Positions 1 through 5,041 are shown, counted from the first letter of the stretch. The stretch: 64,000 nucleotides of DNA from an uncultured Comamonadaceae bacterium (GCA_966211955.1 CBIHOF010000002.1:91581-155580), one strand, 5' to 3'. Translations and numbers: made by a program. The notes: generated by a model from the letters alone, not told the origin.

Positions 1-960
1 CAGCGACGACCGGTGTGCTTCGAGGCACTCGGCTTTGAGGAACTCCATGCGAATGTCCACGCCATAGCCCGCGCGTACTTCCTCGTTGGCGATGCCGCCG
101 CCGAGCCGGCAGGCCGCTTCGCACAGCAGGAGCTGTCCGGCTTCGGTGCGAAACACCTCGACATGGAATAGCCCGTTGCGAGGCATCGGAAGCGCGTTCT
201 CAAGAATGCTGCAGGTGAAGTCCACCATGCGCAGCCGCCATGGGTCACTGTCCCCGAGCATCTTGAGGCCGAGGAAGTTGCCGTGCAGAAATTCGAAGCA
301 GGTGGTGACGTTCTCGACGATGGAGATGACCACGCACTTGCCGTCGAGATACAGGCCATTGGCGGTCAGCATCCGGCCCGGGATGCAGGCTTCTGACAAC
401 GGGCTGTCGCCGCGGCCGACGGCGCCGGACGCGAGGTAGGTCTCGAGTTCCGACTCGTCGTGAAGGATCTGGACGCCGGCCGACCCGCGTCCGTCCAGCG
501 GCTTGACGACAAAAGGGTAGCCGACGGTGTCCACGAAATCGAGCACCTCCAGCGCGTTGCGCGTCAGGCGGAAGTCGGGGACAGCGACGCCCTTGCTGCG
601 CGCAAGCTTCTTCATCTCGTACTTGTCGCGGAAGAAGTTGGCGTCATGCGCCGAGAGCCCAGCGATCCCGAAGCGTTCGCGCAGCCGGGCCGCACGCAAG
701 ACATCGATCTCGGCGAGCGGCACGACATTCTGGAACGGGTGCACTGCATGGAGGTCGGCCGCGCGCTTTTCCACGAGGTCGTTGTCGTTAAAGCCATCGA
801 AGAACTCGATGGCACGAAACGCGCCGGCCAGGTGCTCGCTCAGCCGCGCCCTGTCGGCGGAATCGGTGAACAAGGTCGCGGTGCCTCCGGTGGCATCGGC
901 CCACTCCCTGGCGGAGTGCTGAAAGAGAATTTTCGGCGGGGCAAACAGCAGTACGTTCAT
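1..960 (-). CDS. ATP-grasp domain ligase (partial, C-terminus beyond left edge)
   Basis: Absent from the ORF track because it has no stop in the window. Manual translation from ATG 960 (RBS GGAAGGA) gives MNVLLFAPPK...FRDKYEMKKLARSKGVAVPDF...GYPFVVKPLDGRGSAGV...FHVEVF...LCEAACRLGGG, which are ATP-grasp motifs. Confidence 0.85.
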   Translation of the reverse strand, partial: MNVLLFAPPKILFQHSAREWADATGGTATLFTDSADRARLSEHLAGAFRAIEFFDGFNDNDLVEKRAADLHAVHPFQNVVPLAEIDVLRAARLRERFGIAGLSAHDANFFRDKYEMKKLARSKGVAVPDFRLTRNALEVLDFVDTVGYPFVVKPLDGRGSAGVQILHDESELETYLASGAVGRGDSPLSEACIPGRMLTANGLYLDGKCVVISIVENVTTCFEFLHGNFLGLKMLGDSDPWRLRMVDFTCSILENALPMPRNGLFHVEVFRTEAGQLLLCEAACRLGGGIANEEVRAGYGVDIRMEFLKAECLEAHRSSL

Positions 961-1018
961 GGTTCCTTCCCTGTTGGTTTCCACCTGCACGGTGGTGTGT
1001 GTTGGCGTGATGCCAAAC

Positions 1019-2584
1019 TCATGTCATCGCCTGGCCGCTTGCCTTGTCGGCAATGCCGTGAAGCGCAAGGGTGCTGGACGCGATGGCCCGCGCGATGCGG
1101 TGCGCATGCTTGACGTTCAGTTCAAGCACGCTCGTGAAAAAGTAGGTGCCGCTCGTCAAGGTGCCGATCGCGTAGAAGTGAGGATGCTTGCCGCCATTGC
1201 CGTCGATAACCGATGCATCGTCGAAGGAGACGTCGATCCCACCCAGCGGATGCTGCCGGATCACTTTGTCGGCCAGCATCTGCCGCAGCAGCCGCGACTC
1301 GATGCGCTCGAGGTCGTCGGTCGATCCGGTGGCGTTGACCACGAAGTCGGCCTTCATTGCGTCATGGGTGTCACGGGTGCTGATGGAAAACGATTTGGTT
1401 GTCTCGCATGCGCTGACGTTCGTGATGGAGCGGACGACCTCGAGTTGTCCGCCTTCGATGAGCGCCAGAAGTCTTCTTGCGCTTTGCTCCGGCATGCCGA
1501 CTCTCAAGGACATCCACTTGCTTTGCATCACTGTGCGGAAGAACTTTCGTTCGCGCTGCGGCAGCCGATGCCACAGGATCTCCACCGCGACGTTCATCGC
1601 GCTCAGGACCGACTGCCAGGCACGCTGCTCCTTGCCGCCGGCCGACGTAAGCTCATGGCGCAGGTAGCTGGATGCGTCCCGTGGGCGCCTGAACCACTGA
1701 TGAATCTTGCCTGGCGATCCTGTGAGCCGGCCCACCTCCGAGGCAATGAGGTCGCGGATCTTGCGTAAAGACGTCGGTGCGGGTCGTGCCCTCAGCTCGC
1801 GACCGACGCCTTCCCAGAACTGCCGCGGGCTGTCGTCCACCTGGGTGGATTTGACGCTTGGCAGCATGCCGCTGCGAGAGCAGATGTACAGGCGCCCTTG
1901 ATGGCCGGCGGCCGACAAGGCAATCGCCGCGTCGACTGCGCTCAGGCGCGAACCGAGGATGGCAACCGTGGCCTGCGCCGGGATGCAACGAGTGAGCCGG
2001 GAGGCTGGGTAAGGTGAAGGGAGGTAGCGATCCCGGCCGGAAAGTCCCGGGTAGTGGTCTACCGTGTGGTTGCCGATGGCGAGGACCGCGTGCTGGGCAG
2101 TCAACATCGAGCCCGAAGCGCAACACACCGAATATGCCCCAAGGCGTGGATGCAACGAGGTCACCTCGTCGCACAACAAGTCCACCTGGATCTTCTTGCG
2201 CTGTGCTGCCGCCTGAGCCGCTTTGAGCAGGGAGGCCACGTGACGGCCGAACAGTCGGCGCGGCACGTAGTCGTCTTGCAGGCCCGCATCGAAGCGAAGC
2301 TGCGGAAAGTCTCTTCGCAAGGTGTCCGCGTTGTCCAGGCACCATTCATGGAAACGGCGCTCTTCACCGTGAATCGCGGACATCGTGGACGCTACGCGAT
2401 TGAGCAGTTGATCCTGGTTGTCCTCGCTGTAGGCTTGGCCCGGACCGATGTCGGGCGACCTGTCGAACATGACGATTCGTACCGGCGTCGCCCCCGTCAA
2501 CTCGTGGACAAGGTGATGGAGCGTCGCGACGCCAACGGCACCGCCGCCGATGATGGCAACGGTCACGGGGGAGGCGGAACCCAT
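1019..2584 (-). CDS. FAD/NAD(P)-binding oxidoreductase (NAD_binding_9-type flavoprotein, possible N-hydroxylase)
   Basis: VAIIGGGAVG dinucleotide motif, GPGQAY..LLN..A..MS, YVPRRLFG, second motif ILGSRLSAVD, VVNATG. ATG 2584 overlaps the upstream stop (TGATG). Confidence 0.8.
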   Translation of the reverse strand: MGSASPVTVAIIGGGAVGVATLHHLVHELTGATPVRIVMFDRSPDIGPGQAYSEDNQDQLLNRVASTMSAIHGEERRFHEWCLDNADTLRRDFPQLRFDAGLQDDYVPRRLFGRHVASLLKAAQAAAQRKKIQVDLLCDEVTSLHPRLGAYSVCCASGSMLTAQHAVLAIGNHTVDHYPGLSGRDRYLPSPYPASRLTRCIPAQATVAILGSRLSAVDAAIALSAAGHQGRLYICSRSGMLPSVKSTQVDDSPRQFWEGVGRELRARPAPTSLRKIRDLIASEVGRLTGSPGKIHQWFRRPRDASSYLRHELTSAGGKEQRAWQSVLSAMNVAVEILWHRLPQRERKFFRTVMQSKWMSLRVGMPEQSARRLLALIEGGQLEVVRSITNVSACETTKSFSISTRDTHDAMKADFVVNATGSTDDLERIESRLLRQMLADKVIRQHPLGGIDVSFDDASVIDGNGGKHPHFYAIGTLTSGTYFFTSVLELNVKHAHRIARAIASSTLALHGIADKASGQAMT

Positions 2585-3615
2585 CAATGCCTGCGCAGAA
2601 GAAAGCGGGCCGAGGTCATTCCGACGTGCTGGCCGACGTGGTTCCTGACCTCGCGTCGCGCCCACTTGGCGAGGGACGTCTGCTCGGGCTGCGACACGAT
2701 GCCCAGCTGTCGAAGGACTTCGATGGCCGCCATGATCTGCACCCAGCGATTGCCGTCCGACACCTTGACCGCGATCCCGATGCCCGCGCTGCGGATGCCG
2801 ATGGCCTGGATGCTGCCTGCACCGATCTTGGAGATGATCTCGCCGGGGCGTGAATTCATGAGATCGACGTCGTTGCGATGCTGGCCGCTGCCGAGGTAGG
2901 GGTGCGCAAGGATCGAGTGGGACAACTCACCGAGCACCCCTTCGCCGCGTGCCAACTTGGCATATCCCAGGGCGAGGCTGCGCAGTGGAATTCCGAAACT
3001 CGGCGCGGAGCAGTTGTCCGAGCCGGCCGGCATGGAATCAAGAGGCACTTCGCAAGTACGCGACACCGCCCGAGCGATCGCCTGCTGAAGAGGGTGCGAT
3101 AGCGCCACGTAGTTGTCCATGTCGGCGCCGTGCAGCCGGCACCACCCGAGAAAGCCGGCGTGCTTGCCAGAACATGTGTTGTGAACCTGCGTCACAACGA
3201 GGTCCGCCGGCGCCGCCATCCTTTGCCAGCTGTAGAAGTTGGGGGTATGGCATCCGCATCGCAATGCTGACTCTTCGCAGCCTGCACGATCGAGCATTCG
3301 CTGCACGACGGCCACGTGGCAGGCCTCACCGTTGTGGCTTGCACACAGCAAGGCGACGGCTTCGCTGTCGAAACCCAGAGCCGCAGGGCCATCCGACTCC
3401 ATGAATGGAATTGCCTGGAAGACCTTCAGCGCTGAACGCGGGAACACCACGGTCGCGGGGTCTCCCACGCTGTGGAGCAAGCGCCCGGTGGCGTCGACCA
3501 CCGCAACGGCGCCATGGTGGACGCTGTCGACGAGGCCATCGGTCTCGCCAGGCATGTGTCGCGTGGACACCACCAGCGGCTCATAAGGCGAAGCAATCCG
3601 AGGTCGATCTTTCAC
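2584..3615 (-). CDS. L-asparaginase II family (Rhizobium etli AnsA-type) amidohydrolase
   Basis: Motifs RSALK, ASHNGE, CSGKH, DNCSAP and SKIGA match the class 3 asparaginase Ser-Lys tandems and the Cys/Lys/Cys zinc site. Confidence 0.85.
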   Translation of the reverse strand: MKDRPRIASPYEPLVVSTRHMPGETDGLVDSVHHGAVAVVDATGRLLHSVGDPATVVFPRSALKVFQAIPFMESDGPAALGFDSEAVALLCASHNGEACHVAVVQRMLDRAGCEESALRCGCHTPNFYSWQRMAAPADLVVTQVHNTCSGKHAGFLGWCRLHGADMDNYVALSHPLQQAIARAVSRTCEVPLDSMPAGSDNCSAPSFGIPLRSLALGYAKLARGEGVLGELSHSILAHPYLGSGQHRNDVDLMNSRPGEIISKIGAGSIQAIGIRSAGIGIAVKVSDGNRWVQIMAAIEVLRQLGIVSQPEQTSLAKWARREVRNHVGQHVGMTSARFLLRRH

Positions 3616-3662
3616 GGCCTGGTGTCCTTGTTGTTGTCATGCCTCGCCCGTGCGACCCTTTC

Positions 3663-3677
3663 GCAAAGGCTCGGCCA
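3663..3677 (-). promoter_or_regulatory. putative sigma54 -24/-12 promoter
   Basis: Minus strand TGGCCGAGCCTTTGC with correct GG-N10-GC spacing, about 50 bp upstream of the asparaginase-like start. Confidence 0.4.
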
Positions 3678-3967
3678 TCTCCCTGCGCCTTTCGTGCGGC
3701 GTCATTCGCGCGCCGACATCGAACAGCGTTGCTCATCTGTTGAGCGGGCGCAGTCTAGCCGTGGCGTGCGCTTCCGTGTCACCGCAACGATGTAATAAAG
3801 CGTGCTCGACGAATGTCAGCGAGATTTCACATGGACGATGTATGCGTGTGCGATCCATCGAGAGTGAATCGCGTGGGCGGTAAGGGATACCGGCCTCGCG
3901 CATCCAAATGTGTTGGGCCCCAGGCGGGCTGGCGCTCACAAAAACACACAGCACCAAAACCGATCCG

Positions 3968-3994
3968 GCAAAGTGGTCTAAGCCACTTTGCTCG
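3968..3994. promoter_or_regulatory. palindromic putative transcription-factor site (copy A)
   Basis: GCAAAGTGG-TCTAAG-CCACTTTGC is a perfect 9-bp inverted repeat; a near-identical sequence recurs at 25035-25073. Confidence 0.55.
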
Positions 3995-4299
3995 ATGGCA
4001 ATCGACGTGCCCGCACCCATGAAAAGTGCGATCGACGTCAACGCATCATTCGAAGAAGCGGCGTGCCTTGCAGCCCTGCTTCTGATTTGCAGAGGTGCTT
4101 GCAACCGAACGTCTTGCAACCGGTTTCTTCACCTCGGTGCCGACCGCACCTCGGGTGGGTTATCGCGCTCTCATTTCGGGCCAAGGGTCTTCAGTTGTTT
4201 CGACCCTTTGGCGTGCGTGATGAGTCCAAACGCAACGCAATGGCGCATGCGTGATTCGACTTGGCGCAAACGTCACGACTTGCCAACCATTCATTGGAT

Positions 4300-4314
4300 T
4301 GGCCCAAATGTTGC
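4300..4314 (+). promoter_or_regulatory. putative sigma54 -24/-12 promoter of left EPS operon
   Basis: TGGCCCAAATGTTGC with correct spacing, about 50 bp upstream of ATG 4364. Confidence 0.5.
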
Positions 4315-4363
4315 GTCGCAGCAAGCGACTGAACACATGCCGCAAAGGCAAGGGAGATGGTTC

Positions 4364-5041
4364 ATGAACGCTGCAAGTTTTGTAGCGGGCGCTCGCATGA
4401 ACGCGCCCGCATCCCGATCGACAGACCCTTCGCGCGACCTGCTGATGTTGCGCATCAACCAGGCGGTGGCGCTCGCGCTGCTGCTGCTGCTCAGCCCGGT
4501 GATGCTCGTCATCACCTTCCTCATCTGGCGCCGGGACGGAGCGCCGGTCCTCTTCGCGCACTACCGCGTGGGCCAAGGCGGCAAGCTCTTTCGCTGCATG
4601 AAGTTCCGCTCGATGCTGCGCAATTCCGAGCAGGTGCTGGCCGATCTGTTGGCCACTGATGAAAACGCGCGTGAGGAATGGGCGCGCGATCAGAAGCTCA
4701 CCAACGATCCGCGCATCACCGGCGTCGGCCACTTCCTGCGCAAGAGCAGCCTCGATGAGCTGCCTCAGCTGCTCAACGTGCTGCGTGGCGAGATGGCCCT
4801 TGTCGGCCCGCGGCCCGTCACCGTGGGCGAACTCACCCGCTACGGCAAGGTGCGTTGGCATTACCTGAGCGTGCGCCCTGGCATCACGGGCCTGTGGCAA
4901 GTGAGCGGGCGAAACAACACGACGTATGAAGAGCGCGTCGCGCTGGATCGCCGCTACGTCGAGCAGAAGTCACTCTGGATGGACGTGGGCATTCTTTTCA
5001 GGACCGTGAAGGTGGTGGTGGCGCGGGAAGGGGCACGCTGA
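4364..5041 (+). CDS. priming sugar transferase (undecaprenyl-phosphate hexose phosphotransferase, ExoY-like short form)
   Basis: KFRSM, DPRITGVGHFLRKSSLDELPQLLNVLRGEMALVGPRP, PGITGLWQVSGR. One N-terminal TM helix; RBS AGGGAGA before ATG 4364. Confidence 0.92.
   Translation: MNAASFVAGARMNAPASRSTDPSRDLLMLRINQAVALALLLLLSPVMLVITFLIWRRDGAPVLFAHYRVGQGGKLFRCMKFRSMLRNSEQVLADLLATDENAREEWARDQKLTNDPRITGVGHFLRKSSLDELPQLLNVLRGEMALVGPRPVTVGELTRYGKVRWHYLSVRPGITGLWQVSGRNNTTYEERVALDRRYVEQKSLWMDVGILFRTVKVVVAREGAR

What the first reader, a model, noticed from the sequence alone, without database searches (positions are those of the whole stretch)
1..3615. Asparaginase-II + flavin oxidoreductase + ATP-grasp ligase operon: candidate uncharacterised small-molecule pathway
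Seen: three co-oriented genes, the first two coupled by a TGATG overlap and the third 58 bp away, continuing off the left edge. Known: class 3 asparaginases release L-Asp; this flavoprotein family includes the L-Asp N-oxygenases CreE/FzmM (nitrosuccinate/nitrite for N-N bond products); stand-alone ATP-grasp enzymes make non-ribosomal amide bonds. Inference: an amidohydrolase supplies or deprotects an amino acid that is N-oxidised and ligated into a modified dipeptide. I do not recognise this gene trio from a described cluster.
Basis: partly seen in the sequence, partly recalled or inferred. Interest (0 to 1): 0.75.

Follow-up and report, generated by a model that had tools for sequence, protein, structure and literature searches.

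The report
Mobile four-gene small-peptide biosynthesis cassette
The three genes are real and belong to a four-gene, horizontally acquired cassette (amidase, N-hydroxylase-type flavoenzyme, amino-acid ligase, export pump) that most likely makes and exports an unknown oxidised amino-acid or dipeptide compound; cassettes with the same ligase–flavoenzyme core recur in many bacteria and none found here has been characterised.

Summary
On the minus strand lie a class-3-asparaginase-like gene (2584-3615), a PF13454 flavoprotein (1019-2584, TGATG overlap) and an ATP-grasp gene (1-960, 58-bp gap).

Reading left of the window completes the ATP-grasp (413 aa) and adds a fourth co-oriented gene, an MFS_3 (EntS-type) exporter. 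There is no CreD-like lyase and no further ligase.

- **Flavoprotein:** it has the FzmM/CreE fold (best PDB match 8CP2, TM 0.78). Identity is only 20%, and the aspartate-binding Arg13 is Val.
- **Ligase:** it is a RizA/BacD-like L-amino-acid ligase. All 13 orthologue loci examined carry an adjacent PF13454 flavoprotein. Most of them also carry an exporter, and many a second ligase or amino-acid 2OG hydroxylases.
- **Asparaginase-like gene:** its two closest homologues (51-52%) sit with an MFS_3 exporter and an ATP-grasp gene, and with a PF13454 flavoprotein where the contigs reach, in a different gene order. It keeps every catalytic and zinc residue. Four residues around the substrate-carboxylate site differ from those of essentially all its relatives.

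Best reading: an uncharacterised cassette for an exported, N-oxygenated, ATP-grasp-ligated amino-acid metabolite. The product is unknown. Interest is moderate.

The parts
2584..3615 (-). Class-3-asparaginase-like serine amidohydrolase, 343 aa from GTG 3615. Public gene calls use the ATG 20 codons downstream. The closest homologues align over the longer N-terminus.
   Evidence: PF06089 E 3.6e-98. PDB matches: ReAIV 8cly E 6e-59 and ReAV 7os3 E 5e-51. Arg47, Ser48, Lys51, Ser80, Cys135, Lys138, His139, Tyr156, Asp187, Cys189 and Lys263 are all kept. Clade-specific changes are D30, T147, N201 and G267.
1019..2584 (-). Class B flavoprotein monooxygenase of the FzmM/CreE/PcxL fold (PF13454), 521 aa. 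Its start ATG overlaps the upstream stop (TGATG).
   Evidence: PF13454 E 3.4e-30. Profile against PDB: 8cp2 E 2.4e-17. The AF2 model has pLDDT 88.9. Foldseek gives 8cp2 at E 8e-29, TM 0.78, 20% identity, followed by the N-hydroxylases DesB, PvdA, SidA and KtzI.
961..1018 (-). 58-bp spacer between the flavoprotein and ligase genes, with a GGAAGGA ribosome-binding-like site.
   Evidence: Sequence read. No terminator-like site above chance.
1..960 (-). First 320 codons of an L-amino-acid-ligase-like ATP-grasp enzyme (the 'W-type'). The complete gene is 413 aa at C2:91299-92540 and extends 281 bases left of the window.
   Evidence: ATP-grasp Pfam models. PDB: RizA 4wd3 E 6e-23. The AF2 model has pLDDT 93.8. 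Foldseek gives RizA E 3e-29, BL00235 and BacD/YwfE. Invariant K113, K153, E281 and R285 across 22 orthologues.
3616..4360 (.). Non-coding stretch of about 745 bp with lower G+C (0.58) upstream of the cassette. It presumably holds the promoter. No element was identified in it.
   Evidence: Composition. No sigma-70-like site. No Rfam match. No Fur-box-like site of at least 12/19.

Best explanation
A four-gene, horizontally acquired cassette makes and exports a small N-oxygenated amino-acid or dipeptide-type metabolite. It lies on the minus strand in the order amidohydrolase, flavoprotein, ATP-grasp ligase, MFS_3 exporter.

**Shown**
- The gene set, its tight spacing and the family/fold of each protein.
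- The ligase and flavoprotein form a conserved gene pair across Proteobacteria, usually with an exporter.
- The asparaginase-like gene and the MFS_3 gene travel together with an ATP-grasp/PF13454 pair in other lineages.

**Inferred**
1. The flavoprotein uses NADPH and O2 to N-hydroxylate (or further oxidise) a primary amine of an amino-acid substrate. That substrate is probably not aspartate.
2. The RizA-like ligase activates a carboxylate as an acyl-phosphate and joins it to an amine. This may be the N-hydroxy-amine, which would give an N-hydroxy-peptide (hydroxamate) bond.
3. The MFS_3 pump exports the product.
4. The class-3-asparaginase-like enzyme has an intact Ser-Lys/zinc machinery but an altered alpha-carboxylate pocket. 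It probably hydrolyses a side-chain amide on a pathway intermediate or on the product (tailoring, unmasking or self-protection) rather than simply degrading free L-asparagine.
For: **Gene set and families.**

**Ligase-flavoprotein pair.** Orthologues of the ligase (34-59% identity, near full length) lie next to a PF13454 flavoprotein in 13 of 13 loci examined: L009, L011, L015, L017, L019, L020, L021, L024, L025, L043, L044, L045 and L047.
- Eight of these also have a LAL-type ATP-grasp.
- Most have an MFS_3, MFS_1 or AbrB-type membrane protein.
- Several have PF13640/WelO5 and PF10014 amino-acid dioxygenases, or an aldolase/aminotransferase set.
- G340 has the same order flavoprotein-ligase-MFS as the window.
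- Fusions of this ligase type with a second ATP-grasp exist.

**Asparaginase-like gene.** Its closest homologues among 5.8 billion proteins (P0060 52%, P0059 51%) sit in flavoprotein-ATP-grasp-MFS_3-AsnII (L032-L034) and ...ATP-grasp-MFS_3-AsnII (L035). Their MFS_3 proteins are 43-48% identical to the window's.

**Accessory status.** The genome has a second asparaginase-II paralogue (C4), and that is the one shared with same-genus genomes. The flavoprotein is absent from all 15 same-genus genomes searched.

**Structures.** FzmM fold with N-hydroxylases as next-best matches; L-amino-acid ligases as best matches for the ligase.

**Mobility.** Relatives lie beside integrases, T4SS genes, a TrwC relaxase and on plasmids.
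Against: - No product, substrate or transcript evidence exists.
- No promoter, terminator or riboswitch was found.
- In the other AsnII-containing cassettes (L032-L035) the flavoprotein and ligase are only 25-26% identical to the window's. The quartet is therefore conserved as an architecture, not as one orthologous operon.
- A sister clade of the flavoprotein is linked to a CoA-transferase, a cupin and a LysR regulator. That looks catabolic, so the clade is not uniformly biosynthetic.
- The asparaginase-like enzyme keeps every catalytic residue and may still be an ordinary asparaginase.
- An 11-bp GC hairpin between the ligase and MFS genes could uncouple the exporter.
Confidence: 0.6

Rival explanations
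1. The asparaginase releases L-Asp. The flavoprotein is a CreE/FzmM-type L-aspartate N-oxygenase making N-hydroxy-Asp or nitrosuccinate (a nitrite donor or 3-nitropropionate precursor). The ligase then builds an N-N or nitro-containing dipeptide.
For: The closest solved structure is the FzmM-type Asp N-hydroxylase. Catalytic Asn62 and the aromatic residue over the flavin (Trp51 to Tyr52) are conserved. An Asp-releasing enzyme family is translationally coupled to the flavoprotein. Nitrosuccinate can decarboxylate spontaneously, so a lyase is not strictly required (PMC10404684).
Against: - Identity to 8CP2 is only 20%. Characterised Asp hydroxylases are 47-54% identical to FzmM, and PcxL, which acts on 2-aminoethylphosphonate, is as distant (17%) (PMC10404684, Table 1).
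- Asp-binding Arg13 is Val17 here and in the whole clade.
- By ungapped extension of the alignment, Arg577 falls on Leu489.
- The helical substrate domain has a single invariant Arg.
- No CreD/fumarase-type lyase lies in the gene row examined to about 20 kb left of the window.
- Orthologous cassettes carry Ile/Leu-type hydroxylases.
Confidence: 0.1
2. A hydroxamate metallophore (siderophore-like) pathway. The N-hydroxylase and ligase make a hydroxamate chelator that the EntS-like MFS_3 pump exports.
For: The next-best structural matches are siderophore N-hydroxylases (PvdA, SidA, DesB, DfoA). MFS_3 is the Pfam family I recall as holding the enterobactin exporter EntS (own knowledge; the family match is). 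Hydroxylamines are good nucleophiles for acyl-phosphates (established chemistry, and the basis of the hydroxamate assay for ligases).
Against: No TonB-dependent receptor, uptake ABC system or reductase lies nearby. No Fur-box-like site lies upstream. Relatives sit with amino-acid hydroxylases and on conjugative elements, not in iron loci.
Confidence: 0.12
3. A catabolic or nitrogen-scavenging operon. The MFS protein imports an amide or peptide. The asparaginase-like enzyme and flavoprotein degrade it. The neighbourhood is not biosynthetic.
For: The asparaginase catalytic set is intact. A sister flavoprotein clade sits with a CoA-transferase, a cupin and LysR, which is a catabolic-looking arrangement.
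Against: An ATP-consuming amide ligase is the most tightly linked partner of the flavoprotein (13 of 13 loci). A housekeeping asparaginase-II paralogue already exists. MFS_3 members are typically exporters (own knowledge). Relatives carry extra ligases and amino-acid-building enzymes.
Confidence: 0.1
4. Chance juxtaposition. The asparaginase-like gene is an independent gene that merely abuts a flavoprotein-ligase-exporter module.
For: 12 of the 13 ligase-orthologue loci show no asparaginase-II gene in the stretch read; L047 was read only about 1.5 kb each side of the ligase. In L032 the gene sits at the other end of the cassette.
Against: The stop and start overlap by one base in the window. 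The only two close homologues of this divergent paralogue are again inside a cassette of this kind, one overlapping the MFS_3 gene by 4 nt. These three proteins share pocket substitutions that are absent from 117 other homologues.
Confidence: 0.08

Closest known systems
L-aspartate N-hydroxylases FzmM / CreE (structure 8CP2, Streptomyces sp. V2) and the related PcxL
   Same: It has the same three-domain class B monooxygenase fold with a large helical substrate domain (TM 0.78, E 8e-29). It belongs to PF13454. The catalytic Asn (N62), the FAD GxGxxG motif and the second dinucleotide motif are kept.
   Different: Identity is 20%. Arg13 is Val, and the arginine cluster for aspartate cannot be recognised. 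There is no partner nitrosuccinate lyase. The gene partners are an ATP-grasp ligase and an exporter, not N-N-bond machinery.
L-amino-acid ligases RizA (rhizocticin), BacD/YwfE (bacilysin), BL00235; more distantly NikS (nikkomycin)
   Same: These are the best sequence and structure matches. Plasmid homologues at 31-33% identity are annotated NikS. It is a stand-alone ATP-grasp enzyme in a small operon with an MFS exporter, as in the bac operon.
   Different: Structural-alignment identity is 14-20%. The Pfam LAL_C2 domain is not detected. It forms its own family (1390 representative clusters at E<=1e-30) that is consistently paired with a PF13454 flavoprotein.
Class 3 L-asparaginases ReAIV / ReAV of Rhizobium etli
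   Same: E 6e-59 to ReAIV over nearly the full length. Both Ser-Lys tandems, Arg47 and the Cys-Lys-Cys zinc site are intact.
   Different: The residues that surround Arg47 and the substrate alpha-carboxylate are changed together in the three cassette-linked proteins: Glu17 to Asp, Asn134 to Thr, Gly188 to Asn, Asp/Glu267 to Gly. They are conserved in 117 other homologues. It is a second, accessory paralogue embedded in a ligase/oxygenase/exporter cassette.
Hil operon of Pantoea/Pseudomonas (HilA/HilB isoleucine dioxygenases, HilC reductase, HilD ATP-grasp ligase, HilE MFS; Smirnov et al. 2013, PMC3684760)
   Same: Related loci (L017, L019; in part L015, L024, L025, L044) combine PF13640/WelO5 and PF10014 dioxygenases with ATP-grasp ligase(s) and a transporter. 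Smirnov et al. proposed this logic for a dipeptide antibiotic.
   Different: The window has no HilA, HilB or HilC. The Hil description includes no PF13454 flavoprotein and no asparaginase-like gene.

Membership tests
Class 3 L-asparaginase (PF06089, ReAV/ReAIV type) | Significant full-length match to the family and to the solved members | tested here: met
   PF06089 E 3.6e-98. 8cly E 5.9e-59 and 7os3 E 5e-51.
Class 3 L-asparaginase (PF06089, ReAV/ReAIV type) | Catalytic Ser48-Lys51 and Ser80-Lys263 tandems, Arg47, and the zinc site Cys135/Lys138/Cys189 (PMC12292245) | tested here: met
   All are present: R60, S61, K64, S93, C148, K151, H152, Y169, D200, C202, K263.
Class 3 L-asparaginase (PF06089, ReAV/ReAIV type) | Conserved acidic and polar shell around Arg47 and the substrate alpha-carboxylate (Glu17, Asn134, Gly188, Asp267) | tested here: not met
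   The window, L032 and L035 have D30, T147, N201 and G267. Among 117 other homologues the first three positions are E, N and G in 117/117. The fourth is D or E in the 117 of 119 listed homologues that remain once the two duplicates of L032 and L035 are set aside.
Class 3 L-asparaginase (PF06089, ReAV/ReAIV type) | Hydrolysis of free L-asparagine | not testable with these tools
   Needs an enzyme assay.
L-aspartate N-hydroxylase (FzmM/CreE orthogroup) | FzmM-type three-domain fold with FAD and NADPH sites and the catalytic Asn62 | tested here: met
   Foldseek 8cp2 E 8e-29, TM 0.78. N62 is invariant and Y52 replaces W51.
L-aspartate N-hydroxylase (FzmM/CreE orthogroup) | Arginine cluster that binds aspartate (Arg13, Arg276, Arg416, Arg577, Asn413; PMC10404684) | tested here: not met
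   Arg13 aligns with Val17 inside a confidently aligned block, and the clade consensus is GGGAVG. The other positions lie in a region that sequence alignment does not cover. Only one Arg (R361) is invariant in the helical domain.
L-aspartate N-hydroxylase (FzmM/CreE orthogroup) | Sequence identity in the range of characterised members (47-54% to FzmM) | tested here: not met
   20% identity to 8cp2. The comparison range comes from PMC10404684, Table 1.
L-aspartate N-hydroxylase (FzmM/CreE orthogroup) | Adjacent CreD/FzmL-type nitrosuccinate lyase | tested here: not met
   No lyase-like gene was seen in the gene row examined to about 20 kb left of the window. The neighbours are MFS_3, DUF3297, a di-haem peroxidase, YtkA-like and a sugar transferase.
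L-amino-acid ligase (ATP-grasp, RizA/BacD type) | ATP-grasp fold closest to LALs, with conserved nucleotide and Mg-binding residues | tested here: met
   4wd3 E 5.9e-23 by sequence. Foldseek gives RizA E 3e-29, BL00235 and YwfE. K113, K153, E281 and R285 are invariant in 22 orthologues.
L-amino-acid ligase (ATP-grasp, RizA/BacD type) | Pfam LAL_C2 C-terminal domain (PF18603) | tested here: not met
   It is not reported for the window protein or its orthologue L019:8701-9924. It is reported for the second, LAL-type ligase of related loci.
L-amino-acid ligase (ATP-grasp, RizA/BacD type) | ATP-dependent dipeptide formation from free amino acids | not testable with these tools
   Needs an enzyme assay.
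Hil operon (Smirnov et al. 2013) | Tandem hilA (PF13640) and hilB (PF10014) dioxygenase genes with the HilC reductase | tested here: not met
   None lies in or next to the cassette. The only PF10014-like gene in the genome is on contig C28. Related loci L017 and L019 do have the tandem.
MFS_3 (EntS-like) transporter | Full-length match to PF05977 | tested here: met
   E 1.5e-96 over residues 8-397. It is 43-48% identical to the MFS_3 of L032, L035 and L044.

The most novel reading that the evidence does not exclude
The conserved pair of an FzmM-fold N-hydroxylase and this ATP-grasp family may be a previously unrecognised enzymatic route to N-hydroxy-peptide (hydroxamate) or otherwise N-oxygenated dipeptide antimetabolites. 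In this route the ligase would acylate the enzymatically made hydroxylamine. In the window's variant, a class-3 asparaginase fold would have been recruited for a job other than asparagine breakdown: a tailoring or self-protection amidase that travels with the exporter. That would be the first non-asparaginase function for this fold.
Probability: 0.2. Interest if true: 0.75.

Novelty: new variant of a known kind. Interest (0 to 1): 0.5.

Why it matters
Small ATP-grasp-made peptides such as bacilysin, rhizocticin, tabtoxin and dapdiamides are potent antimetabolites.

The ligase family here has 1390 representative clusters at E<=1e-30. In every locus examined it is paired with an FzmM-fold flavoprotein. 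It occurs on plasmids and conjugative elements of Legionella-like, enterobacterial, Pseudomonas, Chromobacterium, roseobacter and actinomycete genomes. No characterised member turned up in the paper library searched.

The window offers a minimal four-gene version that is easy to express. It would give a first product and a first substrate for a non-aspartate member of the FzmM fold. It would also test whether class-3 asparaginases have diversified beyond asparagine hydrolysis.

Tried and rejected
It was repeated with 10 sequences.
- **Flank synteny with two same-genus genomes** (G007, G004), meant to define an empty site: only DUF3297 is shared within about 10 kb either side, so no insertion borders could be drawn.
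- **G+C and GC3** of the four genes (0.62-0.655; GC3 0.77-0.83) are only modestly below the genome (0.668) and the neighbouring EPS genes (GC3 0.86-0.91). This is suggestive of acquisition but not proof; my background ORF set was contaminated by spurious frames.
- **Promoter/terminator scan:** nothing above chance.
- **Rfam:** only a chance miRNA match.
- **Fur box:** none.
- **Literature searches** for the ligase + N-hydroxylase pair and for PF13454/YdhS found no described system.
- **Earlier scan notes:** nothing relevant.
- **Dyella-type PF13454 proteins** sit beside a cysteine-dioxygenase-like gene and are unrelated in context.
- **Residue-level mapping of the 8CP2 arginine cluster** in the helical domain was not possible. 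The tools give neither model coordinates nor the full 8CP2 sequence.

Full report
**Observation.** The window is C2:91581-155580 of a 5.88-Mb, 75-contig assembly. Three co-oriented ORFs lie on the minus strand:

| Gene | Window coordinates | Length |
|---|---|---|
| Asparaginase-II-like | 2584..3615 | 343 aa from GTG |
| Flavoprotein | 1019..2584 | 521 aa |
| ATP-grasp | 1..960 | runs off the left edge |

- The first junction reads CAT TGA TGG, so the stop and start share one base.
- The second gap is 58 bp, with GGAAGGA ahead of the ATG.
- Pfam assigns PF06089 (E 3.6e-98), PF13454 NAD_binding_9 (E 3.4e-30) and several ATP-grasp models.

**What lies to the left.**
- The ATP-grasp gene is complete at 413 aa (C2:91299-92540).
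- It is followed, after 53 bp, by an MFS_3 transporter gene (PF05977, E 1.5e-96). The gap is 8 bp if an alternative ATG is used.
- That spacer holds an 11-bp GC hairpin without a U-tract.
- Further left come a DUF3297 gene, a convergent di-haem cytochrome c peroxidase and a YtkA-like lipoprotein.
- On the right, a 745-bp lower-G+C spacer separates the cassette from a divergent EPS sugar-transferase gene.

**The flavoprotein.**
- It is an orphan by sequence. The best homologues among 5.8 billion proteins are 35% identical, and only 1 of 60 relatives has one at 34%.
- A profile of the clade hits one solved protein strongly, 8CP2 (E 2.4e-17). 8CP2 is the Streptomyces sp. V2 L-aspartate N-hydroxylase of the FzmM type.
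- An AF2 model (pLDDT 88.9) matches 8CP2 at E 8e-29, TM 0.78 and 20% identity. The next matches are N-hydroxylating monooxygenases (DesB, PvdA, SidA, KtzI, putrescine and cadaverine hydroxylases) at about 1e-14.
- The catalytic Asn62 is invariant, and Trp51 is replaced by Tyr52.
- The aspartate-binding Arg13 is Val17. The clade motif is GGGAVG.
- The helical substrate domain does not align, and it has a single invariant arginine.
- The same paper shows that characterised Asp hydroxylases are 47-54% identical to FzmM. It also shows that PcxL, which acts on 2-aminoethylphosphonate, is only 17% identical.

The fold family is therefore right, but the substrate cannot be inferred, and aspartate is unlikely.

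**The ligase.**
- The best sequence match in the PDB is the L-amino-acid ligase RizA (E 5.9e-23).
- An AF2 model (pLDDT 93.8) matches RizA, BL00235 and BacD/YwfE first.
- K113, K153, E281 and R285 are invariant in 22 orthologues.
- Plasmid homologues at 31-33% identity are annotated NikS.
- An exhaustive profile search finds 1390 representative clusters at E<=1e-30, with more than 150 full-length ones below 1e-87. Fusions to a second ATP-grasp or to a GNAT domain also occur.
- In an even sample of 400 genomes of the class, only one has a clear orthologue.

**Conserved neighbourhoods.**
- Every orthologue of this ligase that I could place (34-59% identity) has a PF13454 flavoprotein next to it. 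The 13 loci are L009, L011, L015, L017, L019, L020, L021, L024, L025, L043, L044, L045 and L047.
- Common extra genes are a LAL-type second ligase (8 loci) and MFS_3, MFS_1 or AbrB-type membrane proteins.
- Other extras are PF13640/WelO5 plus PF10014 dioxygenases of the HilA/HilB kind. On roseobacter plasmids there is an aldolase, an aldehyde dehydrogenase and an aminotransferase.
- Smirnov et al. proposed a dipeptide-antibiotic logic for the Hil operon. That operon shares the dioxygenases, a ligase and an MFS, but has no flavoprotein.
- Many loci are on mobile DNA, beside integrases, T4SS genes or a relaxase, or on plasmids.
- In a tree, the window's flavoprotein groups (support 91/95) with low-G+C gammaproteobacterial elements. 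Their order, LAL-flavoprotein-ligase-MFS_3, matches the window except for the first gene.
- A separate clade is linked to a CoA-transferase, a cupin and LysR, and looks catabolic.

**The asparaginase-like gene.**
- It is 343 aa and matches ReAIV (E 6e-59) and ReAV.
- The genome has a second paralogue on C4 (38% identity). That paralogue is the one shared with same-genus genomes.
- The window copy's closest homologues are only 51-52% identical, and both lie in a cassette of this kind:
  - L032-L034 have flavoprotein-ATP-grasp-MFS_3-AsnII beside a TrwC relaxase.
  - L035 has ...ATP-grasp-MFS_3-AsnII.
- In those loci the MFS_3 is 43-48% identical to the window's, whereas the flavoprotein and ligase are only 25-26% identical.
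- The amidase and pump therefore appear to travel together between different ligase/oxygenase pairs.
- All residues shown by mutagenesis to be essential in ReAV (PMC12292245) are present.
- The three cassette-linked proteins share substitutions at Glu17, Asn134, Gly188 and Asp267. These are the residues around Arg47, which holds the substrate alpha-carboxylate. They are conserved in 117 other homologues.

I read this as a changed substrate, not a dead enzyme. That reading is an inference.

**Mechanism.**
- The best-supported model is an accessory cassette for an exported, N-oxygenated, ATP-grasp-ligated amino-acid metabolite.
- The amidase would act on a pathway amide, in tailoring, unmasking or self-protection.
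- Formation of a hydroxamate bond by the ligase is chemically attractive but untested.
- Rivals are the aspartate/nitrosuccinate version, a metallophore, a catabolic operon, and chance adjacency of the amidase gene. Each is scored in the Rival explanations section.

**Limits.**
- No regulatory element was found.
- No empty-site comparison was possible.
- No residue-level structural mapping could be done.
- No described system with this gene pair turned up in the paper library.

**Verdict.** It is a new variant of the known kind "small ATP-grasp peptide gene cluster", of moderate interest as a tractable lead.

Noticed in passing
G000 contig C4:131890-132885 (outside the window): A second asparaginase-II paralogue, 38% identical to the window copy. 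It is the one shared with same-genus genomes, so it is probably the housekeeping enzyme.
   Followed up: partly
L002:5655-5735 (C2:91235-91315, just left of the window): An 11-bp perfect GC hairpin (GAAGGCGGCGC...GCGCCGCCTTC) lies between the ligase stop and the MFS_3 start (z -2.5), with no U-tract. An alternative MFS start ATG lies inside it, 8 nt after the ligase stop.
   Followed up: partly
L011:11605-14756: In an uncultured gammaproteobacterial element, the orthologous ligase gene is split into two halves. Genes inserted between them include a reverse-transcriptase (RVT_1) gene, which looks like a group II intron or retroelement insertion.
   Followed up: no
L010, L012, L014, L018, L022: A sister clade of the flavoprotein (Erwinia, Telmatospirillum, Pseudomonas, Marinobacter, Halomonas) sits directly after a CoA-transferase gene. 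A ChrR-like cupin (L010, L012) and a LysR regulator (L010, L014) were also seen. This is an uncharacterised, catabolic-looking operon.
   Followed up: partly
L061 (Pantoea agglomerans plasmid pNBBC01-5, 8400-23533): A distinct small cluster holds EctB, ThiF-like, TauD, GNAT and CapA-like genes, two ATP-grasp ligases, and an MFS transporter followed directly by an amidase. It has the same pump-then-amidase arrangement as L032 and L035.
   Followed up: no
window 3616-4360 and ORF 3908-5041: The spacer upstream of the cassette has G+C 0.58. The sugar-transferase ORF has a 184-residue N-terminal extension without a Pfam match, so its real start is probably much further downstream.
   Followed up: no
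P0015, P0018 (Aspergillus proteins): Fungal homologues of the flavoprotein (30-31% identity, about 780 aa) exist. One has a formyl-transferase domain (PF00551). That architecture would suit N-hydroxylation followed by N-formylation.
   Followed up: no
G000 contig C28:43200-43802: This is the only PF10014 (HilB-like) amino-acid dioxygenase homologue in the genome (38% identical to the L017 protein). It is unlinked to the cassette.
   Followed up: no
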